The position numbers were made by a program, and so were the translations under genes. Of a stretch of DNA of 62,867 bases, positions 34,970 to 51,428 are shown piece after piece; within the stretch, counting starts at the first letter, position 1, and every line of letters begins with the position of its first letter. The stretch covers positions 1-62,867 of the IMG/VR virus record IMGVR_UViG_3300042905_000668. One strand, 5' to 3'. The DNA is from a virus (taxonomy: Duplodnaviria; Caudoviricetes). Under the pieces are notes generated by a model that saw only the letters and a list, made by a program, of their open reading frames with translations, searched no databases and had not been told where the DNA came from.

Positions 34970-35037
34970 TAGCAACTTGTTACTCTCTCCTTTGGTTGCT
35001 ATCTCCTTGAGCCCCGACTTCGGTCGGGGTCTTTTTT
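34970..35037 (+). ncRNA. Candidate anti-Shine-Dalgarno sRNA
   Basis: Extended -10 TGcTAGAGT at 34955-34963; stem TAGCAAC/GTTGCTA with CTCTCTCCTTT in the loop; ends in a terminator. Confidence 0.55.
35011..35037 (+). terminator. Rho-independent terminator at the junction of the two arms
   Basis: GCCCCGAC-TTCG-GTCGGGGT-C-TTTTTT. Confidence 0.9.
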
Positions 35038-38000
35038 ATTCACCGTATGCTTCTGCGGCGGCTTGCTTCAAGTAGGGAGCCAGTTTACGGTCGAGCGTTA
35101 CACCTTGGTACATTTCGTTTGAGATACGCTCACGTGCCTTCACCGACTGAGTAATTGTCTTTTCACTGATGCCCAGTTCAGGGTACTTAGCACCAAGCTC
35201 AAACAACTTCTCACGTGCATCCATCATCCCGTCGGCGTCGCCCTCTCGCATAGCCGCATAGTACTTCTTCAGTGCGTTTTTTTCGATGGACTTGATGGCC
35301 TTACCCTTCTCGGTCATGTACGCATTTTCTTCGTACTGCTTCATCAAGTCAGCAGGGGCAAACCCAAGCACTTGCATAGCGGCGTTGTAGCCGTTTACAT
35401 CTCCAACCGTATCACCACGCAGAGTGTTAGCGCCTTCGGTTGCATAACGGCCACTCTTCAAGATGTTACGCAGTGCAATAGGTAGTATGGCCTCAATGCC
35501 GCGCTCGTACTGGCCTTCAGCAATTAAGTCTTTACCACGCAAAATACTGTCCACAATAGAGTACGGCGCACCAAGCAAGCTCTCCATGAACTGGGATAAC
35601 TCACTTGCATCTGCTTTGCTACCCTTTTGCTCACGCCACAACAAGTCAGTCCAACCCACACGGTCGGCAATGCTCAAGTTGGTAAGGTAGTTGACTGGGC
35701 CTTTGTAGAAGAAGTCACCAAGGAAGCTACGCATGACAGTATCAAAATCATCGTCATCATCCTCTTGGAACATGTTGTAAGCGGCTTCTGCAACCCAGTA
35801 CAAGGGTAAACCTTTTGCACCCGCAAACAGCGCAGACATTCCATACACACCTGCAAGTTGCCTACGAGCCGCTTTGATTGCTTCAAGCTGTTCACCTGTT
35901 GCACCTTTGACGGGGAGTGAACGCATCATGGTGTCAAACAACATGTAGTACATGCTGAATGCAAAACGCTTAAACACCATCAAAACTTTTCCTATGTCAC
36001 TCTGACCGAGGCTGGGGCCAGATAGCGTACTACCTGCACCGTGCGAATACTCCACCATTGCAAGAGCTTTATCAATCGCCTTGGTTTCTTTTTCTGCGGG
36101 GGTCAAACGCTTTTCTTCCGCAGTCATTTTGGCAGGGTTATTAAGCCGCGTTTTTTCCAAGTCATAAGCGGCAACGGCTGTGATCTCACGGTTCATGCGC
36201 TCGGCATGATGGAACATAAAAGAACCTACCAACGTAGTGACACGTACAAGTTTGTTTGTGCTGCCGTACCCTGATGAATCGTTGTTCTCAGAACTTAACG
36301 CACTCCGTGCAGTAGACGTAGCCAGCAGACCACGGTCTTTCATAGCCCCAATGAGTCCTGCATATTGAGGAGCCTTGCCATTGTTGACCAAGTTCTCAAT
36401 AGAAGTCATGGCCTTCTGGTCACTAGACTCACCTGTCAACTCAGCAACTTTGCGTGTGAACCCACTGCTCATGTAGAGCTTACGGGCGTTGTTTAGTGCC
36501 ACACCTGCATCTTTGAACCCATACTCACCACCAAGTTGCGGGTAGACAATCAGAGGAGTTTGCAGTGTGTTGATTACTGCGGAAGAGATGTTACCTGCAA
36601 GGTTGTAGTAGAACGCACCGGAGCTTGCATACTGGGAGAATGCAGTTAACGTAGGGTTCATTGCAAAATCGCGGCGACCATCAAACTCTTTAAGAAGTTC
36701 ACCACCGTAGGTATTAACATCGCCCCGTGAGGAATCAACAGTTTCCTTCATGTCTTTTACAATGCGTTGCAATTCGGGGCCATACTGCATACGGGCCAAC
36801 TGACGTGCAGTGTTACTGCTCACACGGTCAAACACATAGGCGGCGTTATCAATATAGCCACCAATACCAGTACGCTTTTGACGGCTCTTCAGAATGCTGG
36901 CTTCAGGCATAGCCTTGACAACAAGTTGTATCAAGTCATCAATCGCTTTATCCCCGGCTTGATTGTCCTTCATGATCTTCATGATGTCGGCCAACATAGT
37001 GCCAGACGGTACATTGTCTGAAGTCAGTTGATCTGCACGGGAATAAACGTCAATTTTTGTAGCACCTTTGGCCTCAAGCTGTCTACGCGCAAAGTCACGT
37101 TCAGCTTCGGATTCAAAAGATTCTTTTTTAGTGTCACCGTTCATGTCGTACTGCAACCAGAACGGGCCTTCGCGGAACAGCGGCGCATAGTGGTCAACAC
37201 GCACGGTGCTTAACTCAAACAGAATCTTTTGATAGGCAGATGCGGCTTGCGACTTGTTACCCACCGTAGCCTCGATGTTGCGCTCCAACGATTTCAAGAA
37301 CTCCCCATCAAGAGTTTTGTAGGTGGCAAATAGATCGTGGTATAACTTCTTGCCATCCGGTGTAAGTTTGTTAAACCGTGCGTTGAGTTGTTTCCACTCG
37401 GCTTCTTTCTCAGGACTGCCTTTGTACTTGTCCAACTTCGCTTCAGGGTTTACGTCCACACGAGTGGAGTCGTTTACCAAAGTAGACCACGCCTGATACT
37501 CAGGGGTTTGTCGAAATTCGGCCAAGCGGTTATGTAATGGGTACATGGCTTCAAGAAGTTTCTCTTGATAACCGGCCATCTCTTCAACAGTAGCGGCAAA
37601 ACGTTTAGCTGAATCACCTAGATATTTGCTACCAGCCTCACCCAAGGCAGATAAGTTTAGTGCCTTGTACATCAACTGACGGCCAGTCGTACCAATTGTT
37701 TCTGCGGCTTTCCAAAACCCAACAGCGTTCTCACTGTTCATGATGGGTTGCTTGCGGATGGTGGCACCCATCTTTGTGAACATCTCTTGCACAACATTAG
37801 GGTTGCTCAGAGATTGCGCATACATAGTTTCACCTGTGCGTGTCTCAGGTGGAGGGCTAATGATGTCGTTCAGCATGCGGTCAATCGCATCTAACGCAGT
37901 CTCGGTCTTAGGGGGCAAGCGGAGCAACTGACGCATGGCATTAACCAAACGCTCCCAACCAGTGAGCTTCTCACCAGTAGGTTTGAATTCTTTTAAGCGG

Positions 38001-41000
38001 TTGCGAAACGCATCATTACTCCACGCTTCCGCAGCGAACTCTTGTATATCTTGCGCACCATAAGTTCCTTCAGTGCCTTTCTTCATTTGATCGAAGAGGG
38101 TTGTGACCTGACGAGTGACAGGATGCGATGGGTTGTCCAAAGTGTGGGACATGGTGGCATGTGAAGACTCATGCAGAATCTCATACTCAGTAGCACCATC
38201 ACGCAGATACACTGTGTTGGTCTTTGGATCGTACATGGACTTCTCAGCGCCATATACTAAGTTGACGTTACCAACTTGTTTAGACAAAGACTCTGCAAAA
38301 AGTTCTGCTGTCTTAGATGAACCGCTATCCGCCAGCCCTTGTAAAGCACCTACCAAGTTATTGTTGGCAAGCTGTTGGAGCACCACCGGGTGAGCCTGTG
38401 TATGTAATGCGGCAAGGTCTGCATCAGCAAGCAAGCCATTGAGGTCGGTGTCAGCGTTATCATCTAAATCACCAAAGTACACATCACCAATGATCTTTTG
38501 CATTGACGCACGTTTGGGAGCTTGGTTTTCTTTTTTGATTTGCTCTTTAGTGGCTTTGCGAATGTCTTGTTGCTTCTGCTGTTTTGCACGTGTCTTGATA
38601 GACCCCTTTTCTCCCTTTTCTTCTTTCGTGTACTGAGCAATCTTTTGATCCATAAAAGCTACAGCTTCAGGAGACAAGTTAGCACGTGCCCATGCTTCGG
38701 CATTTTTGGTGTGAATACCACCTTGGCCTTTAAAGAATGTGGCTTCTGCTTCAGTACCAAATGTTGGTTCTGGGCCTAGTGGGCTTTTCTCAAAGGCTTT
38801 CATCTTTGAGTTGCGATAGGCAGTTGGCGCAAGCACCAAATCATTTGCAATTGCGTCAAGCGCAAGTTCAGGGACTACCTTGCCAAAATAAGCGCGGGCA
38901 TCTTTGGCGACTTGATCTAACTTAGACATTGCCACACCAAGTTTTTGTTGGATGATTGGCAGTTCTGAAGATAAGTCAGGGCGATCTAAGATGCCTCGTG
39001 GGGTAGTTGTTGCCGTTTGTCTTTGCGCTTCTGCTTGCTGGGTTTGAGTGGTCGTAGTGCCATCGGTTGCGGTTCCTTCAGTTAATGTAGTGGGCTGTTG
39101 TCCTTCTCGTCCAGTAGCGTCTCTAACATCCGGCTGAGTAGAAACATCTCCACCTCCGACAGTTGTTTCATCGGTTGTGGTATCTTCAATACTAGCGGGT
39201 TCGCTAACCACGCTAGTGCTTCCTCCACTTGGGGCGGCGTCAGGTCTTGTAACATCAGGTACTCCAAATGCAAATTGGCGGGTTTGTTCTTGCTGTCCTT
39301 GCTTGGTAGCAGAGATGTCTTCTACTTGCATCTCCTGTCTAGCCGCATCAATTTCCGCGCCATATCCATCAGCGTATAACTTGTCGAGGATTCCGGTATA
39401 CACATCGTCGTTGATATTGACCATGTTTTTGGGGCTTTCAATTACTTGAACAAAACGGCGAATGCCATTGCGGTTAGTAAGATCAAGTCCTTTTAACTTA
39501 GGAGTCAAGAGAGAGTTAGGTGGAATACGCAGTCCACGTAACAAGTTAGGCGTTACTGTGGTTTCTTGGGTGATAGCTTTCTCTACACGCTTTTCCTCAA
39601 GCGCGGGTTTAAACATACCGCCAGTGCCGGGAGTTGGTGTTTCTTCAGCAAATGCTGACCCTGCCTGTTTATTACGCATGCCTTCGTTGTATTCGGTTTC
39701 GGCTTGTGTAAGTTCTTGATTAGCTTTAGCGGTTGCTTTTGCTTCTGCATCCGCATCTTCTGCTTTACGAGCGGCTATGGCGGCATCTAACTCACCATAG
39801 ATACGATCATACGCACCGGGATTTTGTTCTTTGATTGCCTCTGCACGTTGTTGCAGTGCGGCAAGTGATACTGCGCCAACATCTTCTGGTACGTTTTTGA
39901 ATGCAGAGGTTAAGTCTGCTTCACGTTGTTTACGTGCGGCCTCAATGGCAATGTCATACTCAGCTTGTTTCTCTGGCGTAAGAGTACCGGCTTTAGCCTC
40001 GGCATCCATTTGCGCTTTGAGTGCTTCTTCGGCTTCTTTGGTATCTTTAAATTCTTTGCGGGCAGTCAAGCCTTGGCTTGCACCACCAACAGTACCAAAC
40101 GCACCGCCACCGATTGCGCCCTTAACAAACGATTCTTTGAACCGCTGAATGTTCTCAGGGCCAAACATATCTTTAGTACTACCTGCAACTTGTTCTGCGG
40201 CGGCATTGATAGACTCTTGTGCTGCCTCAGTCAAACCTTCAGACCCTGCGGTCTTGGCGGCTTCTTTGCCAATGTACTTCCACACCTTTGGTGCGGCACC
40301 AGATTCTTTGGCCATCTTCTCGATAACCTTCATCTTGCCGTAACCACCAAGTTCACCCAACAATTTGCCGGGGACAATAGCGTCCAATACAGAAGACAAG
40401 CCACCAGCAAGCGCGGCAATACCCGGCTCCATCTTGTCAGTTTCTTGATAGATGCTTTCAAATACTTCGGGTGCGTTCTGTGCAAATGAGCCAAGGTACA
40501 CACCACCATACATTGCGCGTTTACCTGCTACTTCACCAGCCTTTTTAGCGGCAGTCTCTGCGGCGGCACGGCCAGCCATGGATAGTGGGCCAGCTTCCAA
40601 AGCGGCACCCATAGCACCACGAGCGGCAATCCTACTACCCACTGCCCCAGCGCCTATACCGGGGATCATTGCAGTCAGTGCAGTAGGGCCAAGTTCACCT
40701 AGAGTTTCAGCAATAAACTGTGCGCCCTCATACGGGCTTTCAACTTCAGTGTATGATTTGAACTGCGTAGGGTACTTGGCTTGTAACGCTTGGCGTGAGG
40801 CATCGGCTTCAGCCATCTGACGTTGTGCGTACTCATCAAAGCCAAGCGCAGATGCACCCATAGCGGGGAGCGTGTCCCCCAAAGCGATACCTGTTTCCCC
40901 CATGCCACGCATGAAGCCCTCTTTCAAGAGGGTGCCAATCCCTACATCTCGCTTTGGAATCTTAAAGTCATATTGCTTGGCAAGAAGACCAACCTGCTTA

Positions 41001-41068
41001 TTTAATTCCTCGGTAGAGATATTGTCATCAAACCGTACGGGGCCAATCTTAGGCAGGGTAATGATCAT
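35036..41068 (-). CDS. 2010-aa internal virion/ejection protein (large polyvalent protein) with zincin-like and PLxRFG-like regions
   Basis: Gly/Ala-rich hydrophobic N-terminus, EGLTEAAQE motif, ILHESSH...EFAAEA, YAPLFREG. Confidence 0.75.
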   Translation of the reverse strand: MIITLPKIGPVRFDDNISTEELNKQVGLLAKQYDFKIPKRDVGIGTLLKEGFMRGMGETGIALGDTLPAMGASALGFDEYAQRQMAEADASRQALQAKYPTQFKSYTEVESPYEGAQFIAETLGELGPTALTAMIPGIGAGAVGSRIAARGAMGAALEAGPLSMAGRAAAETAAKKAGEVAGKRAMYGGVYLGSFAQNAPEVFESIYQETDKMEPGIAALAGGLSSVLDAIVPGKLLGELGGYGKMKVIEKMAKESGAAPKVWKYIGKEAAKTAGSEGLTEAAQESINAAAEQVAGSTKDMFGPENIQRFKESFVKGAIGGGAFGTVGGASQGLTARKEFKDTKEAEEALKAQMDAEAKAGTLTPEKQAEYDIAIEAARKQREADLTSAFKNVPEDVGAVSLAALQQRAEAIKEQNPGAYDRIYGELDAAIAARKAEDADAEAKATAKANQELTQAETEYNEGMRNKQAGSAFAEETPTPGTGGMFKPALEEKRVEKAITQETTVTPNLLRGLRIPPNSLLTPKLKGLDLTNRNGIRRFVQVIESPKNMVNINDDVYTGILDKLYADGYGAEIDAARQEMQVEDISATKQGQQEQTRQFAFGVPDVTRPDAAPSGGSTSVVSEPASIEDTTTDETTVGGGDVSTQPDVRDATGREGQQPTTLTEGTATDGTTTTQTQQAEAQRQTATTTPRGILDRPDLSSELPIIQQKLGVAMSKLDQVAKDARAYFGKVVPELALDAIANDLVLAPTAYRNSKMKAFEKSPLGPEPTFGTEAEATFFKGQGGIHTKNAEAWARANLSPEAVAFMDQKIAQYTKEEKGEKGSIKTRAKQQKQQDIRKATKEQIKKENQAPKRASMQKIIGDVYFGDLDDNADTDLNGLLADADLAALHTQAHPVVLQQLANNNLVGALQGLADSGSSKTAELFAESLSKQVGNVNLVYGAEKSMYDPKTNTVYLRDGATEYEILHESSHATMSHTLDNPSHPVTRQVTTLFDQMKKGTEGTYGAQDIQEFAAEAWSNDAFRNRLKEFKPTGEKLTGWERLVNAMRQLLRLPPKTETALDAIDRMLNDIISPPPETRTGETMYAQSLSNPNVVQEMFTKMGATIRKQPIMNSENAVGFWKAAETIGTTGRQLMYKALNLSALGEAGSKYLGDSAKRFAATVEEMAGYQEKLLEAMYPLHNRLAEFRQTPEYQAWSTLVNDSTRVDVNPEAKLDKYKGSPEKEAEWKQLNARFNKLTPDGKKLYHDLFATYKTLDGEFLKSLERNIEATVGNKSQAASAYQKILFELSTVRVDHYAPLFREGPFWLQYDMNGDTKKESFESEAERDFARRQLEAKGATKIDVYSRADQLTSDNVPSGTMLADIMKIMKDNQAGDKAIDDLIQLVVKAMPEASILKSRQKRTGIGGYIDNAAYVFDRVSSNTARQLARMQYGPELQRIVKDMKETVDSSRGDVNTYGGELLKEFDGRRDFAMNPTLTAFSQYASSGAFYYNLAGNISSAVINTLQTPLIVYPQLGGEYGFKDAGVALNNARKLYMSSGFTRKVAELTGESSDQKAMTSIENLVNNGKAPQYAGLIGAMKDRGLLATSTARSALSSENNDSSGYGSTNKLVRVTTLVGSFMFHHAERMNREITAVAAYDLEKTRLNNPAKMTAEEKRLTPAEKETKAIDKALAMVEYSHGAGSTLSGPSLGQSDIGKVLMVFKRFAFSMYYMLFDTMMRSLPVKGATGEQLEAIKAARRQLAGVYGMSALFAGAKGLPLYWVAEAAYNMFQEDDDDDFDTVMRSFLGDFFYKGPVNYLTNLSIADRVGWTDLLWREQKGSKADASELSQFMESLLGAPYSIVDSILRGKDLIAEGQYERGIEAILPIALRNILKSGRYATEGANTLRGDTVGDVNGYNAAMQVLGFAPADLMKQYEENAYMTEKGKAIKSIEKNALKKYYAAMREGDADGMMDAREKLFELGAKYPELGISEKTITQSVKARERISNEMYQGVTLDRKLAPYLKQAAAEAYGE

Positions 41069-41071
41069 GGG

Positions 41072-42799
41072 TTATTCCGTTGCTTTGTACAAGTCGTTAA
41101 ACGAAGGAATACTAGCACCACCGCCTTGACCAGCAAGCAATGAAGGCATTGCATTCGCGCTGTATTTCATCCATTCCTGTTGCATAAACCGTTGAGCTTC
41201 AATTGGGGCCATTTTTTTGGCTTGCGCTTGCGCTTGTTGGAATTGTGGGCTGGTCTGGAAAGCGGTATAGGCTTTCTGTTCCGCTGTAGCAAGAGTTGCC
41301 GCCGCACGTTTATCCCCCGCCGCAATTTGATCTTTAAGGATACCAAGCCTTTCACGACCAAGCTGCAACTGCGCGTTAGCGGTTGCTGCACTTTGATTAA
41401 GTTGATCTTTTCTAAGCCCTAACTCACTCAAACCTAATATACCCGACTGCGCCAAACTAGCTTTTTGGAAATTGCCTTGTTGTTCAATTTGTTGGCGTTG
41501 TATAGCTTGATTATTACCAGCAGAAGCGGCGTTTAAATTTAAGCTAGTGTACTTATACAAGTTATCAGCGGCACGTTCTCCAGCCGCTTGAGCGGCTTGA
41601 TAGTTACCTTTTTTGGCGGCAACCTTCTGTTGCTCAAGGTTATCACGATAATCTTCTAACTTATCTTTAGCGGCACGATTTGCGGCTTCGCCACGAATAA
41701 GGTCTTCAATACCCTGACTGCCTTCGTTACCCAAAGCACCTGCAAGGGTACGCTCTTTACTACCGGCAATACGTAGACCCGTTTTAATACCGGTCAAAGC
41801 GCGACTAATTGCATTTTCTCTTTCAAGGCCAGCTTCCCGTTTACCAAGACGTTCTTCACGGGCTTCAAAACCGGGCCTGTCCATTTCTTCCAACTTTGTC
41901 TGCGTAAGCTCAACAGCGGTTTTTGCGTCCCTTTTTGCGTCTTCTGGTAACTTTTTGGTAAGTGCATCAAGGTTGGTTAATACGGGAGCGGCGGCCTCTT
42001 TCATTGTGGGCAACGTAGGCATCTTGAAATTACCAGCACCGGGGATTGCGGGGGCAACGGGAGCCACAGGAGCGGCGGGGGCTGGAGGTTGTGCTTGTCC
42101 CTCAAACATTGAACGGCGAGTAGCCGTCGCTGGGTCGTATGGCATAGCCGCAGGAGTAGCTGTAGGTGCTACAGCAGGAGGCATGGGGAGCCCCATAGAT
42201 TGACCCATTGCTCCAACAGGGCCACCAGTTATTGAACGTTCAGCATTGGATAAAGCATCTTGTGCTTCTTTAGCGGCGGCCTCTGCGGCGATGTACCCTT
42301 GGGGGTCTTGTTGGCGTTGGCGCAAACCATAGGTGCGTAACTTAGCCATTGCTTCTTCAACGCGTTTTCTTTCGCTTTCGCCTGTATACCCAGTGTTCTG
42401 ATAACGCTCAACCTTACCGCCATCTTCAAACGCAATAATGCCACCACCGGCGTAGGACTCGGGCAAGTTAGATTGTAGAGCTTCAACACCCTGAGACTGA
42501 TCTGCTTGAGCGGCTTGTGCCATCACCTGTTGGGCAATCGGAACACCGCCCTGTTGTGGTTGTTGCATGCCAGCACCGGCAATGTTTTGCGCCATCTTGG
42601 CTTTGACTTCTGACAACTTTTTGGTAAGTTCTTGAATGAGGGGGATTCCCACATACGATTTAATTGAACCGCTTTGAACACCCGCAATAAGACTTCTCTG
42701 TATGGCTTGAATTTCGTCTGGGCGGTTTGCACGTTTAGCCATTGCCGCCATAGAAGCGGCGCGGCGTGACATATCATCTTGTAGGCTATTGAGGCTCAT
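41072..42799 (-). CDS. Internal virion/ejection protein with YAGGG/FEDGG motifs
   Basis: Ala/Gln-rich helical protein between other ejection-type genes. Confidence 0.65.
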   Translation of the reverse strand: MSLNSLQDDMSRRAASMAAMAKRANRPDEIQAIQRSLIAGVQSGSIKSYVGIPLIQELTKKLSEVKAKMAQNIAGAGMQQPQQGGVPIAQQVMAQAAQADQSQGVEALQSNLPESYAGGGIIAFEDGGKVERYQNTGYTGESERKRVEEAMAKLRTYGLRQRQQDPQGYIAAEAAAKEAQDALSNAERSITGGPVGAMGQSMGLPMPPAVAPTATPAAMPYDPATATRRSMFEGQAQPPAPAAPVAPVAPAIPGAGNFKMPTLPTMKEAAAPVLTNLDALTKKLPEDAKRDAKTAVELTQTKLEEMDRPGFEAREERLGKREAGLERENAISRALTGIKTGLRIAGSKERTLAGALGNEGSQGIEDLIRGEAANRAAKDKLEDYRDNLEQQKVAAKKGNYQAAQAAGERAADNLYKYTSLNLNAASAGNNQAIQRQQIEQQGNFQKASLAQSGILGLSELGLRKDQLNQSAATANAQLQLGRERLGILKDQIAAGDKRAAATLATAEQKAYTAFQTSPQFQQAQAQAKKMAPIEAQRFMQQEWMKYSANAMPSLLAGQGGGASIPSFNDLYKATE

Positions 42800-42808
42800 A
42801 ATTTAACC

Positions 42809-45238
42809 TTATCGTGGAGTCAAAGCGTTGTTTAACGCCAAAGCACTAACACCGGCTGTACCAAAACCCGCTAATTGATTACCCAATGTAGGCTGTGCTT
42901 GATATTGAGTTGTAGTCTGGCCGGGAACGGCATAACCACGCAACAAAGCGTTGTATTGATTGAACGCAGTCATAGGCGCTTCTTGCGCTTGCGCGTAGTT
43001 TTGGATCGCTTGGTTGATAATCTGCTGTTGCTGACTTTGTTGCTGTCCACCAATCTGATTCTGCAAACCAAGAATGCCTGTCTGTGCAGCAAGTTGCTGT
43101 GTGCCAAGTTGACCAAGCTGCCCGGCAGCCTGATTAGCTAACCCGTAACCAGCTTGTTGTGCGCCAACACCTTGTAGACCTGCTTGTGCACCTTGCATAC
43201 CTTGAGCAGTACCTTGTAGACCAACACCTGCACCTTGCAAACCAAGCTGACCTGCGTTGATAGCTTGGCCAACACCTTGAAGACCCATACCGGCACCTTG
43301 CATAGCTTGCGCAGTACCTGCCAGTCCTGTATTGGCTCCTTGTTGAGCAAGTTGACCTGCGGCAATTGCACGGTCTGCGGCAGAAAGGCCAATCTGTGAC
43401 CCTTGCATACCTTGTGCCGTACCGGCCAATTGACGATCCACACCGGATAAACCAACTTGCGCACCTTGCATAGCCGCTTGCGCACCCTGCATACCTTGGG
43501 CTGTGCCAGCCAGTTGAGCGTTGACACCTTGCAAGCCCATACCAGCACCTTGAATGCCAGTTTGGAACGCTTGATTTGCGGCGTTGACACCAGACAGACC
43601 TGCTTGCGCACCCTGCATACCTTGGGCTGTACCTTGAAGTCCTGTCTGCGCGGCTTGAAGACCCATACCTGCGCCTTGCATGCCAAGGCCATATAAAGAC
43701 CCAGCTTGACCAAGACCTGCAAGACCCGCTTGTTGACCGGCCATAGCTTGACCAATACCAGACAAACCAAGTTGACCACCTTGTAAGGCAGTACCTAGAC
43801 CGGATTGCGCACCACCCAAACCTTGAAGACCAAGATTGGAGCCATACTGCATAGCCTGAATGGCTTTGTCGTAAGCGGTTTGCTGGCCTTGGGCGCGAAT
43901 GGCGTCCATCTGTGAAGCCAAAGCACGGTTAGCTTCAGCATTTTCAATAGCCTGACGTGACCCACCAAACGCACCCGCACGAGCGGCGGCAGACTTACGG
44001 CCTTGAGCGGCAATATCAGCTTGGCGTTGAGCGGCTTGAATTTGAACATCAGTCACAGCAGACTGATATGGGTTCATGTACTGCTGAATAGCGTATGGGC
44101 TTGTCATTTGACGAGCGTAATCTTGCCCTGCGGCGGCTTGTTGGGCCGCATAGTTACGTGCTTGCCCTGTAATATCTTGCCCTAACGCTTCTGCACGAAG
44201 ACCCATCCGACCAATGTCGGCGGCAGACTGTCCATACATTTGCGCTTGGGGAGCCATTGCGGCGGCTTGTGCGCCATAACCTGAACCCATTGCACCATAA
44301 CGATTAGCGGCTTCAAGGGCAAGTTGCTGACCAATCTGACCAGAGCCAAACCCAGCTTGACCGTAACCTAACGCTTGATTGGACAAGCCAGCGGCTTGTT
44401 GGCCATAACCCGCACCCATACCACCATAGTATTGACCGCCCTGAATACCTAATTGTTGGCCAAGCAAACCTGATTGCTGACCTTGCAGACCAGCTTGAGC
44501 GCCCATCTCACCAAACCGTGCGCCACCTTGAATGCCAATGTCTTGACCCATGAGGCCAGACTGCATGCCTTGAGCGCCAGCTTGTTGCGCCATACCAGTA
44601 GCCATATTTGCACGAGCTAAAGCGTCTTGTGCAGCAAAAGCTCCAATACCTTCACCACGGCTACCAGCCTGCGCACCTTGCGCACCGTAACCATAGGCTT
44701 GGTTTTGAGCCATGGCCGCGTTTCGGGCAGCGTTTTGCGCGGCTTGTTGGCCCAACATTTGGCCCATCTGACCAGATTGGAACCCTGCTTGACCGTAACC
44801 TGCGCCTTGAGCGGCAGTGTTTATACCCCCTTGAGCCGCCATGTTTGCCAAGCCTGTAGCTTGATTGTATTGGCCGGGCACCATCAAATTGGCCGCGTTG
44901 TACTGCACCTGCTGTTGCAGGGGGCTAAAGCCCGCTACGTATTTAGAGGGGTCGGTACTGTAAGGTGTAAACGGACGGGTGCCTGTAATTTCATCTGATA
45001 CCGCGCCTGTTGTTGGGTCAGTTACTTGCCTAGTTTGGAACAAGTTTTTACCTGCGCCCATGAGCACGTTTTCAACTTGGGGGCGCAACCAGTCAGGCAC
45101 ATTGGATTGCGTAACCGTAGTGCTTGTTGGGCCTCCACCGCCGCCACCGCCATAAATAATGCGACCACCTTCTTTACGGGTTACGGATTCGCCAAGGGGT
45201 TCACCCATAGCATAAAGTTCTCGGCGGGAATAGCTCAT
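42809..45238 (-). CDS. Ejection (DNA pilot-like) protein with long Gly/Gln/Ala repeats
   Basis: GGGGGGG...TTVTQSNVPDW, VAGFSPLQ, YMNPYQ, AGAFGGSR motifs of podovirus ejection proteins. Confidence 0.75.
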   Translation of the reverse strand: MSYSRRELYAMGEPLGESVTRKEGGRIIYGGGGGGGPTSTTVTQSNVPDWLRPQVENVLMGAGKNLFQTRQVTDPTTGAVSDEITGTRPFTPYSTDPSKYVAGFSPLQQQVQYNAANLMVPGQYNQATGLANMAAQGGINTAAQGAGYGQAGFQSGQMGQMLGQQAAQNAARNAAMAQNQAYGYGAQGAQAGSRGEGIGAFAAQDALARANMATGMAQQAGAQGMQSGLMGQDIGIQGGARFGEMGAQAGLQGQQSGLLGQQLGIQGGQYYGGMGAGYGQQAAGLSNQALGYGQAGFGSGQIGQQLALEAANRYGAMGSGYGAQAAAMAPQAQMYGQSAADIGRMGLRAEALGQDITGQARNYAAQQAAAGQDYARQMTSPYAIQQYMNPYQSAVTDVQIQAAQRQADIAAQGRKSAAARAGAFGGSRQAIENAEANRALASQMDAIRAQGQQTAYDKAIQAMQYGSNLGLQGLGGAQSGLGTALQGGQLGLSGIGQAMAGQQAGLAGLGQAGSLYGLGMQGAGMGLQAAQTGLQGTAQGMQGAQAGLSGVNAANQAFQTGIQGAGMGLQGVNAQLAGTAQGMQGAQAAMQGAQVGLSGVDRQLAGTAQGMQGSQIGLSAADRAIAAGQLAQQGANTGLAGTAQAMQGAGMGLQGVGQAINAGQLGLQGAGVGLQGTAQGMQGAQAGLQGVGAQQAGYGLANQAAGQLGQLGTQQLAAQTGILGLQNQIGGQQQSQQQQIINQAIQNYAQAQEAPMTAFNQYNALLRGYAVPGQTTTQYQAQPTLGNQLAGFGTAGVSALALNNALTPR

Positions 45239-45666
45239 ATTAGTACCTCAACTAAGGTGTTGCGCGGTTCAAAGTTGTAACGTTTCCACAAGCGCACAAT
45301 GGCTTCACGGCCACTACCTTGTATTTTCGTTGCCCCATGCGATTTAAGCAACTCTTTTAATTGCTCAAAAGTAGCTTGGTTAGAAATCAATTTACCGCCA
45401 ATGCAAGTAACAAACGCTACCCTATGAAGCGGGTAGTTTATAAAGGACACAGTGCAAGCACCATGGATTTGTTTCTCTTCGTCAATAGCAACTAACAGAA
45501 GCCACTGCCCAGAAGTTACATATTGTTGTACGTGGTCGATGTTGTAACAATACGCCCAGTCAGGAAAATCATGACCTTTGTTTAATGCGTCTTCAATGTA
45601 CGGTTTTACCGTAGGCCATATTTGGTGGATATAGCTTACATCTACAGAACGGATTGTTAGGTTCAT
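45235..45666 (-). CDS. GNAT-fold acyltransferase-like virion assembly protein
   Basis: IWPTV..IEDAL, IHGA, AFVTCIGG, GATKIQGSGR..VRLW..YNF; position analogous to T7 gp13. Confidence 0.6.
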   Translation of the reverse strand: MNLTIRSVDVSYIHQIWPTVKPYIEDALNKGHDFPDWAYCYNIDHVQQYVTSGQWLLLVAIDEEKQIHGACTVSFINYPLHRVAFVTCIGGKLISNQATFEQLKELLKSHGATKIQGSGREAIVRLWKRYNFEPRNTLVEVLI

Positions 45667-46805
45667 TCGACATCATCCATCAAAGATGCAATACCGCCTT
45701 CAGCACGGCGCATCACGTTAGGGGTGCCACGGAGACCAGCAGACCTACCCACAATAGGAGATGTTGGGCCAGACGATGTACGTTGTGGCACAGGCTGTGG
45801 CGCGGGTTGTGCAGGGGCAAAGTACCCAGAATTGTCATACCCACTACCGTAACCCCCATAAGAGGATTGGTAGCTTGGTTGGTAGCTTGACTGATAGCTA
45901 GGTTGTTGAAAGCTAAATGGAGATTGCATCTGGGGTTGGTAGCTTGGTTGTTGAAAGCTAAATGGGGATTGCATTTGCATCTGTGGTTGATAGCTTTGTT
46001 GTTGAAAGCTAAATGGGGACTGTGCTTGAGTACGGAACAAACCATCAGGATAGCCACCGCCGGAGCCACCACCAAACCCACCACCAAAGCCACCACCAAA
46101 GCCACCACCAAACCCAGAACTATTGGTGTAAGGGTTAAATGGCTGTTGTGTCTGCGGCATAGACATCTGAGGGCCGTAGTTGTTATAACCACCAAACGAT
46201 TGAATATCCGTGCGGTTAATACCACTATCTCGCATGAAATCTAAAGTATTACTTATATTTGAGTTTGGATTTTGTTGAAAGTAATTACCAATTGTGTTGT
46301 TAATGTTGCCACGAGACATGCCGGAGTTAAAAGCTGGCGATTGCACGGGCTGTGTGCCATATGTGCTTGTATCAAACTGCGTAGCAGGCCGAGCGTAGTT
46401 TTGGTATGACGTGTTGTAGATGGGCTGAAAAAATTGATCAGAACCCGCCATGGGTCTGCCAGTAGGTGAAGTCATACCAGCGTTCTGCACCATTCCACTC
46501 CAGTTAGAGTCAGACGGTTTGCCATACATTTGGCTTGCGGAATCTTTAATTTGATTACTGGTAAACCCTTGGTTTAACAATTCGTTGTATGCAGTGCCGG
46601 ATTTTTCCCAAGGAATACCTTTCATAGCACTTAGAGTGTCATACCCTTGTTGGGTATTGACAGCCATATTAGCGTACGGAGGGGGAGGAGGAGCGATTAC
46701 AGCAGGTGTCGCAACTTCTGCGGAACCACCGCCTCCACCTCCACCGCCGCCAAAGCAACGACGTACACCGTTATAGTAGCCATTAAATTTGTTTGGAATG
46801 ATCAT
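45663..46805 (-). CDS. Low-complexity S/Y/G/Q-rich protein with leader + poly-Gly N-terminus and C-terminal AEGG motif
   Basis: AAGGA RBS, ATGA overlap with GNAT gene; composition read from the translation. Confidence 0.75.
   Translation of the reverse strand: MIIPNKFNGYYNGVRRCFGGGGGGGGGSAEVATPAVIAPPPPPYANMAVNTQQGYDTLSAMKGIPWEKSGTAYNELLNQGFTSNQIKDSASQMYGKPSDSNWSGMVQNAGMTSPTGRPMAGSDQFFQPIYNTSYQNYARPATQFDTSTYGTQPVQSPAFNSGMSRGNINNTIGNYFQQNPNSNISNTLDFMRDSGINRTDIQSFGGYNNYGPQMSMPQTQQPFNPYTNSSGFGGGFGGGFGGGFGGGSGGGYPDGLFRTQAQSPFSFQQQSYQPQMQMQSPFSFQQPSYQPQMQSPFSFQQPSYQSSYQPSYQSSYGGYGSGYDNSGYFAPAQPAPQPVPQRTSSGPTSPIVGRSAGLRGTPNVMRRAEGGIASLMDDVE
45867..46115 (-). repeat. Coding tandem repeats (QSPFSFQQxSYQ x3; GGGF x3-4)
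   Basis: 45/51-nt units containing GTTGTTGAAAGCTAAATGG and 12-nt CCACCACCAAA(G/C) units. Confidence 0.85.
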
Positions 46806-46814
46806 GGCTGTTCC

Positions 46815-47861
46815 TTATGCGTATGTGGGCATGTACTTGCGCGGATCAATCTCTTTACCCTGAGACTTACGACCTGTGCGGGCTTTACGCACTTTGTCCA
46901 TCATGGCGTAGAGTTGTTTAGCGCCTGCATCAGAGGAGCCGTTACCAAGGTGGGAGACCACATCAGCGGGGACTACAAACTCTTCAGTGGCTAAACGAGC
47001 GGGGCGCTTACCTCCGATGCTTGCAGGGATGCTGTCAGACATACCATCACCCGGGCCTTTGAGCATGCGGCCACCACGTGCGTAATCAGAGTAACTACCT
47101 AGATTAGAGATACCACCAGCGGCCATATTAGAAGAATACATAGGCTCTTCGCCAACCATACGGTCATAACCACCTGCGGTTAGATCAGTGATACCACCCT
47201 CTGCGTAAGGAGTAACGCCACGATAGTCCGAACTAAGACGAAAACGTTTTAGAGGGCCGTTATATTCTTCAGGTTCAAAGGGGTCGGGTCTTGCGCCAAT
47301 AGCACCGGCTAAACCAGCGGAGGCGGCAGTAAAAGGATTAGCCTTTAATGAAGCCATTGGGTCACTGGCAAACTTAGCCATACCCTCACCAAAGGTTGGA
47401 GCGGGTGGAGGGGGAACCACTGAAGGTGCGGTAGGTAAAAACGGAGAAGTAGAAGCGGCGGGTAGGCCAGAGATACCTGCATTTGCCGACAATGGAAACG
47501 CCTGATTCATTGCCGCATTAACACCAGAGGTGGTGTTTGCCAACTGGCTTGCTTGCGCAAAACTTTGACCCGCTGGAATTGGTGTAAACCCAGTAGTAGC
47601 AACTGGGTTAGCTAACATATTTGATACAGGCAAAGCATTAGACATTGCCGCATTTGTAGCCGCCTCAGTACCCGCAGTAGCCAAAGCCGCTTCTGTACCA
47701 GCAGCCGCACTACCGCCCAAAGCACCACCGATACCAGCACCGGCACCACCGGTCAAGCCTCCAAGAAGAGCACCTTTAAGAGGATCGCCACCAGTCAAAG
47801 CGGCAGAGCCACCACCCATTGCCGCGCCAAGCAGCATTGCTTCACCAACTCCAGTACCCAT
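46815..47861 (-). CDS. Ejection-type protein: Gly-rich hydrophobic N-terminus, four xxGG motifs, C-terminal GPGDGMSDSIPA...EFVVPA domain
   Basis: Motifs read from the translation. Confidence 0.75.
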   Translation of the reverse strand: MGTGVGEAMLLGAAMGGGSAALTGGDPLKGALLGGLTGGAGAGIGGALGGSAAAGTEAALATAGTEAATNAAMSNALPVSNMLANPVATTGFTPIPAGQSFAQASQLANTTSGVNAAMNQAFPLSANAGISGLPAASTSPFLPTAPSVVPPPPAPTFGEGMAKFASDPMASLKANPFTAASAGLAGAIGARPDPFEPEEYNGPLKRFRLSSDYRGVTPYAEGGITDLTAGGYDRMVGEEPMYSSNMAAGGISNLGSYSDYARGGRMLKGPGDGMSDSIPASIGGKRPARLATEEFVVPADVVSHLGNGSSDAGAKQLYAMMDKVRKARTGRKSQGKEIDPRKYMPTYA

Positions 47862-47895
47862 GATAGGCTCCTCTATGTTTTGTCATATTCTAGTA

Positions 47896-48342
47896 CTAAG
47901 GGGTCATTGTGCCAACTGCCCCAGCCCCAGAAATACCGGTTAATTCAATTGTTTTTGTAACACCAATTGTTCCTACCGTTCCAACCCCAGAAATACCCGT
48001 TAACCCAAATATTTCTGCAAAGCTAACCGATCCAACTGCGCCAGAAGCAGAAACTCCAACTACACTGCCCGGCACTTTGATACGCAAGACATTGGTTCCC
48101 TCATGCAAGGTTCCACCTTCGGTATCTCTGTAAACGTCACCTAGCCGCAAATTAACATAATCTGCATCGGTTGGTAATGTACGTAAGTCAAGATTCAAAC
48201 TTGCTAAATTAAGTTGTTGTACCGTGTTAATGTTATTAAAAAATAACCGAATTACATTACTCAAAGCATTCATGTACGCAACATCGTACTGAGCCGGTGC
48301 TTGTGGTATGTTTGGTGAAGATCGGTTCTGAAGCATGGACAT
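47896..48342 (-). CDS. Virion protein with C-terminal TGxSxxGxVG repeats
   Basis: Follows the nozzle gene; repeats resemble 58868-59593. Confidence 0.7.
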   Translation of the reverse strand: MSMLQNRSSPNIPQAPAQYDVAYMNALSNVIRLFFNNINTVQQLNLASLNLDLRTLPTDADYVNLRLGDVYRDTEGGTLHEGTNVLRIKVPGSVVGVSASGAVGSVSFAEIFGLTGISGVGTVGTIGVTKTIELTGISGAGAVGTMTP

Positions 48343-50478: not shown

Positions 50479-50916
50479 TTATTTACTGGCAACGCCTTTG
50501 GTCTTCTCAAAAGAACGCATACCGGCAATGCCCAAGATGCCTGATAATATCACCCAAAGCTGGTCTGCGTCTAGTACCGGAGGGGGATCCATACCCACTG
50601 GAACCCAACCCATAGCCTGCAAATATTTCCAGCACCACTGGAATAGTGGGTAGAGTAGAAACTGATACCCCATAGCTGCTACGCCGATCCAACCGATGGC
50701 GGGACGCCAGCCACTGACAAACACGCTACTGGAAGCGGCTTCAATTTTGTTGACCTCGATCTGGGCTAGGTCTGTAGCTTGGTCTATGCGCTTCTCTTCA
50801 AGATCGAGCTTACGTTGCTCAATCTCCATCTCCATCTTTTCTTTGTCAGTGGTGATTAGATCGCCCGCAACCTTGCCAACAGCTTCAATAATTGATCCAA
50901 CAGCAAGCAGGCTCAT
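50479..50916 (-). CDS. Holin (3TM GTA-type holin-like; start re-called at MSLLAV)
   Basis: EAASSSVFVSGWRPAIGW, ILGIAGMRSFEK; overlaps endolysin stop. Confidence 0.85.
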   Translation of the reverse strand: MSLLAVGSIIEAVGKVAGDLITTDKEKMEMEIEQRKLDLEEKRIDQATDLAQIEVNKIEAASSSVFVSGWRPAIGWIGVAAMGYQFLLYPLFQWCWKYLQAMGWVPVGMDPPPVLDADQLWVILSGILGIAGMRSFEKTKGVASK

Positions 50917-51428
50917 TTCAAACCTTTCAGTGTGCGGTTTAGCCAGCCCTTGAGGAACTTTACTTGCACGGGGTTCTTGTTGCAAATCTCAACGTAACGG
51001 GCAATCTTTGCCAAGGCATAGGACTCTTTAAACCGCTGGCCGTCTGAAATCTGGTTGAGCTTCTCAATGGTTTTAGCACCAATACCACCATCTGGCGTAG
51101 CACCTACCACGAGTTGCGCCAGCTTTACAGCCATGCCCATACCAGCATTGACGCCAAAGTTGAAGATGGTGTTGGCTACGTCTTGATTTGAAATCTCGTT
51201 ACCGCGCATCTTGTCCCAAAATTCAATCCGGTAGAACTCGCGCACCATAGGAGTCAGGGAGCCACCAAACTCCTTCTTATCCACAAGCGCCCAGCCGGGC
51301 CACTGAGGGTTTTTATTACGTGCTATGCCAGCATAGGTCATACCCCCGGTGTCGCCGGGTACTTCGTGGAGGACGTAGCCGCCCTCGTCTTGCATCATTA
51401 ACTCAAAGGCTGGTTCAAACTGCGCCAT
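50913..51428 (-). CDS. Endolysin, glycoside hydrolase family 108 with C-terminal PG-binding-3 motif
   Basis: EGGY, DTGGMTYAGI, FNFGVNAG, DGGIGAKT, FLKGWLNR. Confidence 0.9.
   Translation of the reverse strand: MAQFEPAFELMMQDEGGYVLHEVPGDTGGMTYAGIARNKNPQWPGWALVDKKEFGGSLTPMVREFYRIEFWDKMRGNEISNQDVANTIFNFGVNAGMGMAVKLAQLVVGATPDGGIGAKTIEKLNQISDGQRFKESYALAKIARYVEICNKNPVQVKFLKGWLNRTLKGLK

What the first reader, a model, noticed from the sequence alone, without database searches (positions are those of the whole stretch)
45100..46805. GNAT-like gene between two proteins with leader + aromatic + poly-Gly N-termini: candidate cleave-and-acylate system
Seen: 42809-45238 begins with 29 aa ending ...RIIY then G7; 45663-46805 begins with 18 aa ending ...RRCF then G9; the GNAT-like ORF lies between them, coupled by ATGA overlaps on both sides; the upstream gene starts MG followed by a hydrophobic Gly-rich segment. 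Established: N-terminal Gly is the acceptor of N-myristoyltransferases, which are GNAT-fold enzymes, and many eukaryotic virus entry proteins are acylated this way. Inference: leader removal exposes Gly for acylation, giving ejection proteins a membrane-inserting tip, a modification not well established for phages.
Basis: partly seen in the sequence, partly recalled or inferred. Interest (0 to 1): 0.75.

Follow-up and report, generated by a model that had tools for sequence, protein, structure and literature searches.

The report
Phage ejection-protein cassette with GNAT-fold helper
This is the cassette of proteins that a short-tailed phage shoots into its host; it holds a small acetyltransferase-fold helper gene and proteins with optional, swappable leader peptides in front of a glycine run. 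This resembles what is known from phages P22 and T7, and nothing found here shows that the glycine ends are acylated.

Summary
The 143-aa ORF (45235-45666, minus strand) has no Pfam or PHROG hit, but its model (pLDDT 88) is a GNAT fold (Z 10.5 to GCN5). It overlaps both neighbours by ATGA. One neighbour starts with an 18-aa leader then G9, the other with a 29-aa leader then G7.

The context is the internal-virion (ejection) protein cassette of a complete 62.9-kb podovirus-like phage. A small acetyltransferase-like, non-virion "IVP-A" at this position is already described for T7 gp13, P22 and epsilon15. P22 gp7, the gene after gp14, loses a 20-aa leader to host OpdA, leaving Lys-Gly-Gly-Lys-Gly.

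What is new:
- In 61+7 related metagenomic loci the leaders are optional and interchangeable, and always joined at the Gly run. In the 809-aa family, 31 of 41 distinct N-termini carry a leader and 10 start MS/MA-GGGG.
- The same leader types occur on three protein families.
- A YAxGGI motif recurs in four cassette proteins.
- The 2010-aa protein carries an invariant HExxH…E motif (9 of 9 sequences), so it is a candidate processing peptidase.

Acylation has no support. Leaderless forms would expose Ser or Ala rather than Gly, the canonical CoA motif is absent, and mature P22 gp7 could be Edman-sequenced. Verdict: a new variant of a known kind.

The parts
46815..47861 (-). 348-aa ejection-type protein (family F1). 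It is leaderless here, with an N-terminal Gly/Ala 'zipper' hydrophobic segment (MGTGVGEAMLLGAAMGGG...). It carries two YAxGGI-type motifs, with the GGI at residues 222 and 249.
   Evidence: Relatives: 17 of 22 distinct N-termini are leaderless, 4 carry a 21-aa type I leader, and 1 was not classified by the pattern.
45663..46805 (-). 380-aa Gly/Gln/Ser/Tyr-rich protein. The type I leader is at 46752-46805 (18 aa, MIIPNKFNGYYNGVRRCF) and the G9 run at 46725-46751. The C-terminal motif is RRAEGGIASLMDDVE.
45235..45666 (-). 143-aa minimal GNAT-fold protein (order b1-a1-a2-b2-b3-b4-a3-b5-short a4-b6). It is the positional and structural analogue of podovirus IVP-A (T7 gp13, P22 gp14, epsilon15 gp13). 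ATGA overlaps it on both sides.
   Evidence: The family has 1082 proteins at E<=0.001 and 385 cluster representatives.
42809..45238 (-). 809-aa ejection-type protein (family F3). The type II leader is at 45152-45238 (29 aa) and the G7 run at 45131-45151. A conserved N-domain follows (TQSN[IV]PDWLRPQVE ... PF.PYS ... AGFSPLQQQ), then Gln/Gly/Ala-rich repeats.
41072..42799 (-). 575-aa cassette protein with the motif ESYAGGGIIAFEDGG near residue 117.
35036..41068 (-). 2010-aa giant ejection-type ('polyvalent') protein. It has an LPD39 domain at residues 1127-1287, and its C-terminal ~670 aa match the C-terminal part of the PHROG 'DarB-like' family.
38039..38173 (-). Gluzincin-type metallopeptidase motif in the 2010-aa protein: HESSH (residues 966-970, 38159-38173) and Glu1010 (38039-38041).
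   Evidence: H, E, H and the downstream E are invariant in 9 of 9 aligned giant proteins, down to 18% identity. The model puts three beta-strands just before the HExxH helix. The Pfam hit to Tox-MPTase4 is weak: E 0.0083, below the cut-off.

Best explanation
The region is the internal-virion (ejection) protein cassette of a complete ~63-kb podovirus-like phage.

The 143-aa gene is a minimal GNAT-fold protein of the IVP-A kind. IVP-A is a small helper placed with the ejection-protein genes; in T7 it is needed for morphogenesis but is not kept in the virion. Here it is translationally coupled to its neighbours.

Three mid-size cassette proteins share a Gly-rich mature N-terminus. In this genome two of them (380 aa, 809 aa) are made with an 18-aa and a 29-aa leader.

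Inferred steps:
- The leaders are dispensable pro-peptides, cut off at or next to the aromatic/Gly junction.
- The Gly run gives the flexible, unstructured stretch that a peptidase needs.
- The peptidase is either a host oligopeptidase, as for P22 gp7, or the conserved HExxH...E domain of the 2010-aa cassette protein.
- The leader would keep the protein inert or address it to the procapsid.
- The recurrent YAxGGI motif is a second candidate address tag.

What the GNAT-fold protein does chemically is not shown. My estimate is about 55% a non-catalytic or peptide-binding assembly helper and about 45% an active acyl-CoA transferase; within the latter, N-terminal capping of these proteins is about 10% overall.

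Sub-probabilities: cassette identity and IVP-A analogy about 0.85; leaders actually removed about 0.55.
For: Cassette identity
- The window is a 100%-complete virus record with terminase, portal, head, DNA polymerase, holin and endolysin genes.
- The homologue in phage Venkman (39% identity) sits between the tail genes and four large unnamed proteins. The homologue in a Thiohalocapsa phage sits upstream of an 'internal virion protein with endolysin domain'.
- Residues 880-1120 of the 2010-aa protein match a chain of the PhiM1 pre-infection ejectosome at Z 9.1, rmsd 3.2 A over 138 residues. The next row scores Z 4.0.

GNAT fold. The profile search against PDB sequences gave only a weak match, E 0.019 to GNAT 1vkc.

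IVP-A analogy
- PMC4819975 section 9 was read. It states that T7 IVP-A and the syntenic genes of other podoviruses match acetyltransferases, that IVP-A is not in the virion, and that P22 and epsilon15 have standard homologues.
- The GenBank note on epsilon15 gp13 cites an HHpred match to a GNAT.
- BFVD fold hits include small proteins of T7-group phages.

Leaders
- In F3, 41 distinct N-termini split into 31 with leaders of 18-31 aa and 10 with only 2-3 residues. None has 5-17, and the junction is always at the Gly run.
- In F1, 17 are leaderless and 4 carry a 21-aa leader.
- Locus L019 carries type I leaders on all three families. L006 and L014 carry type II on both flanks.
- More distant relatives, with GNAT identity of about 41-43% to the window, keep leader+G4. 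Venkman gp46 has a 57-aa leader then G5.

Precedent: the P22 gp7 leader of 20 aa is cleaved by OpdA (note). The mature end is KGGKG, and deleting the leader leaves about 60% of the burst (passage; sequence).

Candidate peptidase: HExxH...E is invariant in 9 of 9.
Against: - No data here show cleavage. No virion proteome or reads exist for this uncultured phage.
- The GNAT-fold protein has no detectable sequence homology to T7 gp13, P22 gp14 or epsilon15 gp13 (hhalign probabilities 0.1%, 0.3% and 1.0%), nor to PF11090. The link is by fold and position only, and could be convergence or replacement.
- The gene lies inside the cassette, with two cassette genes upstream, not at its head.
- The best-conserved residues (G90, G91, K/R92, G111-A112-T113, R120, R125) lie at strand 4, its loop and strand 5. 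From recalled knowledge of GNAT structures, that is where the enzymes hold CoA, so an enzymatic role is not excluded.
- The similarity of the 809-aa protein to P22 gp7 is not significant (E 0.14).
- Two of the 10 related genomes searched gave no match to the peptidase region.
- Foldseek found no significant PDB match for the peptidase region, and known zincins reach only Z 3-4.
Confidence: 0.6

Rival explanations
1. A protease removes the leaders, and the GNAT-fold enzyme then acylates (myristoyl- or acetyl-type) the newly exposed N-terminal Gly. This would give the ejection proteins a lipid or capped tip for membrane insertion.
For: - GNAT fold.
- Among the structural neighbours tied at the top are protein N-terminal acetyltransferases: NatD Z 10.2, NatC 9.9, RimI 9.5. 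Rows within 1 Z unit are ties.
- The gene is tightly coupled to two proteins with Gly runs.
- Conserved Gly and basic residues sit at strand 4/5.
- Leaderless relatives start MS/MA-GGGG, so a Gly-rich extreme N-terminus is a conserved feature in itself.
- T7 gp14 and epsilon15 gp14, which follow their GNAT-like genes, both start Met-Cys. This is a lead only.
Against: - It is a single 143-aa domain, not the tandem-domain N-myristoyltransferase (architecture recalled).
- 10 of 10 leaderless F3 ends and 14 of 17 leaderless F1 ends do not begin MG.
- The canonical Q/R-x-x-G-x-G/A motif is absent. In the profile alignment to 1vkc, RGLGIG falls on G-K-L-I-V-N.
- The position of the usual catalytic Tyr is W 41%, L 22%, Y 20% (the register is my reading).
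- The mature P22 gp7 N-terminus was read by Edman sequencing as Lys-Gly-Gly-Lys-Gly, which requires a free amine.
- GNAT proteins 96-100% identical to each other sit next to unrelated leader types.
Confidence: 0.1
2. The leaders are not cleaved. They are optional N-terminal add-on modules held on a flexible Gly linker. They would stay on the mature protein and act in procapsid loading, portal docking, or first contact with the envelope during ejection.
For: - Leaders are well conserved within a type and differ in character: type I MIIPNKFNGY..., type II MSYSRR.LYAMGEPLGE..., and hydrophobic/amphipathic ones such as MNLLQSFWNPLAIIKNFTLW. That suggests specific partners rather than mere peptidase bait.
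- Type II contains EGGRIIY, which resembles the YAxGGI motif found inside the other cassette proteins.
- Gly runs are classic linkers.
Against: - Leaderless forms keep the Gly run at the very N-terminus, where a linker has nothing to link.
- The P22 precedent is cleavage.
- The bimodal length distribution (0 or 18-31 aa) and the fixed junction fit a pro-peptide equally well.
Confidence: 0.3
3. The GNAT-fold protein is an active acetyltransferase with a target other than these N-termini. Possible targets are lysines of the ejection proteins, a host envelope or defence component, or a small molecule. Its place in the cassette would then reflect only timing of expression.
For: - The family is conserved and large: 385 representatives at E<=0.001.
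- Residues at strands 4 and 5 are conserved.
- Neighbouring Atlas clusters of viral proteins partly carry PF00583, in 10%, 47% and 67% of their members. These are leads only.
Against: - The gene is kept next to the same protein families by 4-nt overlaps in 51 of 56 and 48 of 49 loci, and in phages as distant as Venkman. That argues for a function tied to the cassette.
- T7 IVP-A is reported as a morphogenesis factor.
Confidence: 0.15

Closest known systems
Podovirus IVP-A: T7 gp13 (Pfam PF11090), P22 gp14, epsilon15 gp13
   Same: All are small proteins (138-154 aa against 143 aa here) with an acetyltransferase-like fold, placed with the internal-virion-protein genes downstream of the tail genes.
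   Different: No detectable sequence similarity. Here the gene lies between cassette genes rather than before all of them. Whether it is absent from virions and needed for morphogenesis is untested.
P22 gp7 / host oligopeptidase A (OpdA) processing
   Same: It is an ejection protein encoded right after the GNAT-like gene. It has a ~20-aa N-terminal leader followed by a Gly-rich stretch (…SYPE|KGGKGG), and the leader is dispensable.
   Different: Here the Gly stretch is a pure run of 4-10 Gly. Leaders occur on three protein families, come in at least four unrelated types, and are naturally absent in many relatives. The protease is unknown. Sequence similarity to gp7 is not significant.
Zincin-like metallopeptidase (MPTase) domains of phage 'polyvalent proteins' (Iyer et al. 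2017, PMC5512222; passages read)
   Same: A giant packaged-type protein with an LPD domain (PF18858) and an HExxH helix plus a downstream Glu, preceded by three strands. The paper proposes processing roles for such domains.
   Different: The Pfam match to an MPTase family is below threshold. No substrate is known. Acting on the leaders of neighbouring proteins is my inference and is not in the paper.
Eukaryotic N-myristoyltransferase and N-terminal acetyltransferases (NatD, NatC, RimI)
   Same: GNAT fold. NatD, NatC and RimI are among the top structural neighbours, at Z 9.5-10.2.
   Different: There is no sequence relationship. It is a single minimal domain with no canonical CoA motif. Differences in Z from other GNATs are under 1, which counts as a tie. 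No activity is shown.
T4 capsid-targeting sequence of internal proteins, cut by the prohead protease (recalled; no call)
   Same: The idea is shared: a short N-terminal address peptide on packaged and ejected proteins that is removed after loading.
   Different: No prohead protease was found in the head-module ORFs scanned. The leaders show no similarity to the T4 sequence.

Membership tests
GNAT superfamily | Mixed alpha/beta fold in the order b1-a1-a2-b2-b3-b4-a3-b5-a4-b6(-b7) | tested here: met
   The model has pLDDT 88 with elements in that order; b7 is absent and a4 is short with low confidence. VIA-align gives Z 10.5, rmsd 2.8 A over 116 residues to GCN5, and 272 of 999 chains reach Z>=8. 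Foldseek agrees.
GNAT superfamily | Motif A, Q/R-x-x-G-x-G/A, in the b4-a3 loop that binds CoA pyrophosphate (motif recalled) | tested here: not met
   The family consensus at that place is G-G-[KR]-x-[IVL]-x-[NST]. In the profile alignment to 1vkc, RGLGIG aligns to G-K-L-I-V-N. A variant loop built on the invariant G91 and K/R92 is not excluded.
GNAT superfamily | Sequence match to a curated GNAT family | tested here: not met
   No Pfam family at E<=10 and no PHROG. The best PDB profile hit is E 0.019.
GNAT superfamily | Binds acyl-CoA and transfers the acyl group | not testable with these tools
   Needs the protein. CoA rode along in the complex job but is not scored.
Podovirus IVP-A (T7 gp13 class) | Small acetyltransferase-like protein encoded with the IVP genes after the tail genes | tested here: met
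   Here there are two cassette genes upstream of it.
Podovirus IVP-A (T7 gp13 class) | Sequence homology to PF11090, P22 gp14 or epsilon15 gp13 | tested here: not met
   No PF11090 hit. hhalign probabilities are 0.1%, 0.3% and 1.0% against single sequences. Profile against profile was not tried.
Podovirus IVP-A (T7 gp13 class) | Needed for morphogenesis but not retained in the virion | not testable with these tools
   Stated for T7 in PMC4819975 section 9. No data exist for this phage.
P22 gp7-type ejection protein with cleaved leader | N-terminal leader of about 20 aa followed by a Gly-rich stretch, encoded next to the GNAT-like gene | tested here: met
P22 gp7-type ejection protein with cleaved leader | Leader dispensable | tested here: met
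   This is indirect: 10 of 41 (F3) and 17 of 22 (F1) distinct natural N-termini lack it.
P22 gp7-type ejection protein with cleaved leader | Leader removed by a peptidase | not testable with these tools
   Needs N-terminal analysis of virion proteins.
P22 gp7-type ejection protein with cleaved leader | Sequence homology to gp7 | tested here: inconclusive
   The best BLASTP segment has E 0.14 (the …PFTP… stretch).
N-myristoyltransferase | Substrate has Gly as the first residue after Met removal | tested here: not met
   0 of 10 leaderless F3 N-termini and 3 of 17 leaderless F1 N-termini begin MG. The cut site of the leader-bearing forms is unknown.
Zincin-like MPTase (for the 2010-aa protein) | HExxH helix plus a downstream Glu, after a three-stranded sheet | tested here: met
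   H966, E967, H970 and E1010 are invariant in 9 of 9. Strands 57-62, 66-68 and 73-77 precede helix 82-98 in the model, which has pLDDT 72.
Zincin-like MPTase (for the 2010-aa protein) | Match to a curated peptidase family or a solved zincin | tested here: inconclusive
   Tox-MPTase4 scores 16.5 bits against a cut-off of 25. Foldseek found nothing at E<=0.001. Zincins (PPEP, lethal factor, ArdC) reach Z 3.1-3.5.

The most novel reading that the evidence does not exclude
IVP-A proteins of podoviruses are real N-terminal acyl- or acetyl-transferases. They would cap the Gly-rich N-termini of ejection proteins, which are exposed directly in leaderless forms and after leader removal in the others. 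The cap would be needed for loading into the capsid or for inserting into the host envelope. That would be a phage counterpart of the acylated penetration proteins of animal viruses, and it would give a biochemical role to T7 gp13 and P22 gp14.
Probability: 0.1. Interest if true: 0.85.

Novelty: new variant of a known kind. Interest (0 to 1): 0.5.

Why it matters
How short-tailed phages load their ejection proteins into the capsid and keep them harmless in the producing cell is poorly understood. The role of the acetyltransferase-like IVP-A (T7 gp13, P22 gp14) has been open for decades.

This uncultured but abundant phage group offers a natural experiment. There are more than 1000 homologues of the 143-aa protein in metagenomes. 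Three ejection-protein families share a Gly-rich N-terminus, with leaders that come, go and swap between proteins. The same operon holds a conserved metallopeptidase motif.

Three ideas become directly testable: that the leaders are pro-peptides or address tags, that the Gly run is the processing joint, and that the GNAT-fold protein acts on these N-termini. A cultured relative (Methylophilales phage Venkman) and the P22 and T7 genetics are available for the tests.

Tried and rejected
- Complex prediction. I submitted the GNAT-fold protein (alignment A1), residues 1-95 of the 809-aa protein (alignment A2), and CoA. Score 0.00 in both runs; verdict 'no answer'. I draw no conclusion for or against binding.
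- Sequence routes to name the 143-aa protein gave nothing significant: Pfam at E<=10, PHROGs, phmmer against PDB (best E 0.39 to an unrelated glycosylasparaginase).
- hhalign of the family profile against single sequences of T7 gp13, P22 gp14 and epsilon15 gp13 gave probabilities <=1%.
- DNA search of 42000-48000 against named phages found no match.
- Pfam and PHROGs on the 348-, 380-, 809- and 575-aa proteins gave no hits.
- The search for related loci with the whole alignment failed for lack of a conserved stretch. Two distant members as queries gave no loci.
- Search for a prohead protease among the head-module ORFs found none.
- Foldseek of the peptidase-region model against PDB found nothing at E<=0.001.
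- A Sec-type signal peptide was considered for the leaders. I rejected it by eye, because types I and II have no hydrophobic core.
- I looked for covariation between the GNAT sequence and the leader type. GNATs 96-100% identical to each other sit next to type II or an unrelated leader, and GNATs at ~72-74% identity to the window sit next to leaderless, type I and type II forms. The a1-a2 loop insertion DFPDWA occurs with both states. So there is no sign that the GNAT-fold protein reads the leader sequence.
- Earlier findings of this scan were not open.
- Conlin et al. 1992 (PMC207121) is not held. I know it only from reference lists and the GenBank note.
- Searches for printed evidence of acylated or acetylated ejection proteins turned up none. 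That covers only the held open-access library. No supplementary files were consulted, and those of PMC4819975 may list more IVP-A homologues.

Full report
**What is in the sequence**

On the minus strand the window carries this gene order:
- a 707-aa virion structural protein (48346-50469; PHROG 3287)
- a 148-aa ORF
- a 348-aa protein starting MGTGVGEAMLLGAAMGGG (46815-47861)
- a 380-aa protein (45663-46805)
- a 143-aa ORF (45235-45666)
- an 809-aa protein (42809-45238)
- a 575-aa protein (41072-42799)
- a 2010-aa protein (35036-41068)

The 380-aa protein begins with 18 residues ending RRCF, then nine Gly. The 809-aa protein begins with 29 residues ending RIIY, then seven Gly. The 143-aa ORF overlaps both neighbours by ATGA. 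In all six-frame ORFs of at least 100 aa there are only four runs of four or more Gly, and these two are the longest.

**The 143-aa protein**

Sequence searches do not name it. There is no Pfam family even at E<=10, no PHROG, and nothing significant against PDB sequences.

It belongs to a large family without annotation. The word-indexed search found 1082 proteins at E<=0.001 among 1095 candidates, and none of the 120 listed carries a Pfam domain. The full HMMER scan found 385 cluster representatives at E<=0.001.

With an alignment of 116 members (A1), AlphaFold2 gives a confident model: pLDDT 88.2, pTM 0.82. The order of elements is that of a GNAT. The last strand is missing, and the region 121-136 has low confidence.
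- Foldseek returns at least 500 PDB matches at E<=0.001, and the rows shown are almost all GNAT acetyltransferases.
- VIA-align gives Z 10.5, rmsd 2.8 A over 116 residues for GCN5; Z 10.2, rmsd 3.5 A over 137 residues for NatD; and 9.5-9.9 for NatC and RimI. These rows are ties.
- A profile search of PDB sequences gives only E 0.019 to GNAT 1vkc.

The canonical CoA motif, which I recall as Q/R-x-x-G-x-G/A, is not present. The family has G-G-[K/R]-x-[I/V/L]-x-[N/S/T] at that place. The most conserved residues are W17, G53, G69, G90, G91, G111, A112, T113, R125, L126 and G131. Several lie at strand 4, the following loop and strand 5. From recalled knowledge, GNAT enzymes hold CoA there. Activity is therefore neither shown nor excluded.

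**Context: an ejection-protein cassette**

The window is a virus record judged 100% complete. It encodes terminase, portal, major head protein, DNA polymerase, helicase, primase, holin and endolysin.

Named phages with a homologue of the 143-aa protein are Methylophilales phage Venkman (39% identity) and a Thiohalocapsa phage (31%). In both, the gene lies after the tail genes and before a row of large proteins. In the Thiohalocapsa phage one of these is annotated as an internal virion protein with an endolysin domain.

The 2010-aa protein has these features:
- an LPD39 'polyvalent protein' domain
- a C-terminal ~670 aa that match the C-terminal part of a PHROG family named DarB-like
- a region 880-1120 whose model matches a chain of the pre-infection ejectosome of phage PhiM1 at Z 9.1, rmsd 3.2 A over 138 residues, with the next row at Z 4.0

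The PhiM1 paper (passages read) describes that ejectosome as tetrameric and octameric ejection proteins.

**What is already known about such a gene**

Hardies et al. 2016 (PMC4819975; section 9 read) state the following. The T7 internal-virion-protein operon starts with IVP-A, which is required for morphogenesis but is not kept in the virion. T7 IVP-A, and the small non-structural gene at the same place in other podoviruses, match acetyltransferases in HHpred. [quoted passage not shown]

The GenBank record of epsilon15 annotates gp13 with an HHpred match to a GNAT. Fold hits in the viral library include small proteins of T7-group phages named 'host range protein' and 'host specificity protein A'. 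That these names denote gp13 homologues is my recollection and was not tested.

The 143-aa protein shows no sequence similarity to T7 gp13, P22 gp14 or epsilon15 gp13. It is therefore an analogue by fold and position, and I do not file it as a member of PF11090.

**The leaders**

P22 gives the closest precedent. The record notes that the N-terminal 20 residues of gp7, the gene after gene 14, are cleaved by host OpdA. The sequence reads …SYPE then KGGKGG. A passage of PMC8402733 reports that the mature N-terminus was sequenced as Lys-Gly-Gly-Lys-Gly, and that deleting the 20 residues leaves about 60% of the burst. [quoted passage not shown]

I fetched 61 related loci from IMG/VR (GNAT identity 51-100%) and 7 more through a distant family member (GNAT identity to the window about 41-44%).

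Of the 61, 56 hold a full copy of the 143-aa gene. The upstream gene overlaps it by 4 nt in 51 of 56, and the downstream gene in 48 of 49 that have one.

The downstream family (F3) is marked by the conserved motif SN[IV]P[DEQ][WYE]. It shows 41 distinct N-termini including the window's:
- 31 have a leader of 18-31 residues.
- 10 have only Met plus one or two residues (MS, MA, MSS) before the Gly run.
- None has 5-17 residues.

The family of the 348-aa protein (F1) shows 22 distinct N-termini. Of these, 17 are leaderless, 4 carry a 21-residue leader of the MLIPNKFNGY type joined exactly at the GG of the zipper, and 1 was missed by my pattern.

The upstream family also comes in two forms: with a leader plus Gly run, or starting MAGGG/MSGGGG.

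Leader types are shared between families. Locus L019 has the MIIPNKFNGY type on all three proteins. L006 and L014 have the MSYSRR…RIIY type on both flanks. Other leaders are unrelated and hydrophobic or amphipathic. The more distant loci keep leader+G4 followed by the same conserved motif. Venkman gp46 has a 57-residue leader, then G5.

So the leaders are optional, interchangeable modules always joined at a Gly run, and the Gly run is kept at the extreme N-terminus when the leader is absent.

**How it most likely works**

Shown:
- the fold of the 143-aa protein
- the coupling and synteny
- the two-state, modular leaders
- the P22 precedent

Inferred: the leaders are pro-peptides removed at or near the aromatic/Gly junction. 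The Gly run provides an unstructured joint that a peptidase can reach.

There are two candidate peptidases.
- One is a host oligopeptidase, as in P22.
- The other is a domain of the 2010-aa protein. Its HESSH (residues 966-970) and a Glu 40 residues on are invariant in 9 of 9 aligned giant proteins, down to 18% identity. Two of the 10 related genomes searched gave no match. The model places three strands before the HExxH helix, as Iyer et al. 2017 describe for the zincin-like peptidases of polyvalent proteins, for which they propose processing roles (passages read).

The database support for a peptidase fold is weak: the Pfam hit is below its cut-off, Foldseek found nothing significant, and zincins reach only Z 3-4.

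A second shared signal is the motif [Y/F/M]-A-x-G-G-I-x-x-[L/F]. It occurs twice in the 348-aa protein, at the C-terminus of the 380-aa protein, and near residue 117 of the 575-aa protein. It occurs as EGGRIIY inside the type II leader. That is six matches in four cassette proteins, against three loose matches in all other ORFs of at least 100 aa. It is kept in relatives. It may be an address tag for loading, but that is speculation.

**The acylation idea**

For it:
- the fold
- the tight linkage
- the conserved Gly-rich extreme N-termini
- N-terminal acetyltransferases among the tied top structural neighbours
- the Met-Cys starts of T7 gp14 and epsilon15 gp14, a lead only

Against it:
- It is a single minimal domain without the canonical CoA motif.
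- There is no conserved Tyr at the usual catalytic place.
- Leaderless proteins would expose Ser or Ala, and in the F1 family often Met-Asp, rather than Gly.
- Mature P22 gp7 could be Edman-sequenced.
- GNAT sequences do not covary with leader type or leader presence.

My literature searches found no report of acylated ejection proteins in the held library. I put N-terminal capping by this protein at about 10%.

**Verdict**

The finding is real. The cassette is a new variant of a known kind, combining a podovirus IVP-A-type GNAT-fold helper with P22 gp7-type leader-bearing ejection proteins. The modular leaders, the Gly-run joint shared by three families, the recurrent motif and the conserved peptidase motif were not found described in the papers I searched and read. 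The 'acylate' half is unsupported.

Noticed in passing
window 46815-47861, 45663-46805, 42809-45238, 41072-42799 (residues given in the parts list): A short motif, [Y/F/M]-A-x-G-G-I-x-x-[L/F], recurs in four neighbouring cassette proteins and inside the type II leader. There are six matches there against three loose ones in all other ORFs of >=100 aa, and the motif is kept in relatives. It may be a shared docking or address motif.
   Followed up: partly
window 38039-38173 (-), in the 2010-aa gene: An HExxH plus downstream Glu is invariant in 9 of 9 giant-protein homologues. The surrounding 241 residues are 78-100% identical in the 120 listed homologues, more conserved than the GNAT-fold protein.
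   Followed up: partly
window 37709-38431 (-): The model of this region matches a chain of the PhiM1 pre-infection ejectosome (8vb2_A residues 289-524, Z 9.1). Whether that PhiM1 domain also has a peptidase motif was not checked; the paper's text has no mention of a peptidase.
   Followed up: no
L064:3729-4319 (T7 gp14) and L082:6587-7129 (epsilon15 gp14): Both proteins, encoded right after the GNAT-like IVP-A, start Met-Cys followed by a hydrophobic Gly/Ala-rich segment. This is much like the Gly-zipper start of the 348-aa protein here.
   Followed up: no
L001:9390-10298 (Venkman gp46) and L066:2082-3989: A longer conserved leader-type segment (…L.H..P.E…GGSGTINP.TGL.E…) precedes the G5 run in Venkman gp46. 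It also occurs near the start of the gene upstream of the GNAT-fold gene in L066. Its function is unknown.
   Followed up: no
L013:6477-7590, L022, L024:~6430-6830, L026: In some relatives extra genes sit between the GNAT-fold gene and the F3 gene. L013 has a 222-aa ORF with a VVDLGCGSG stretch, which by recall is methyltransferase-like. L024 has a 135-aa ORF that looks like a second copy of the GNAT-fold family.
   Followed up: no
window 8532-8960 (-): A 142-aa ORF in the head module matches the PHROG family for co-chaperonin GroES (E 4.7e-08).
   Followed up: no
window 50479-51428 (-): Holin and endolysin genes lie between the tail-side structural genes and the ejection-protein cassette. In relatives this lysis pair is replaced by unrelated holin/endolysin types, a sign of mosaic exchange at that spot.
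   Followed up: no
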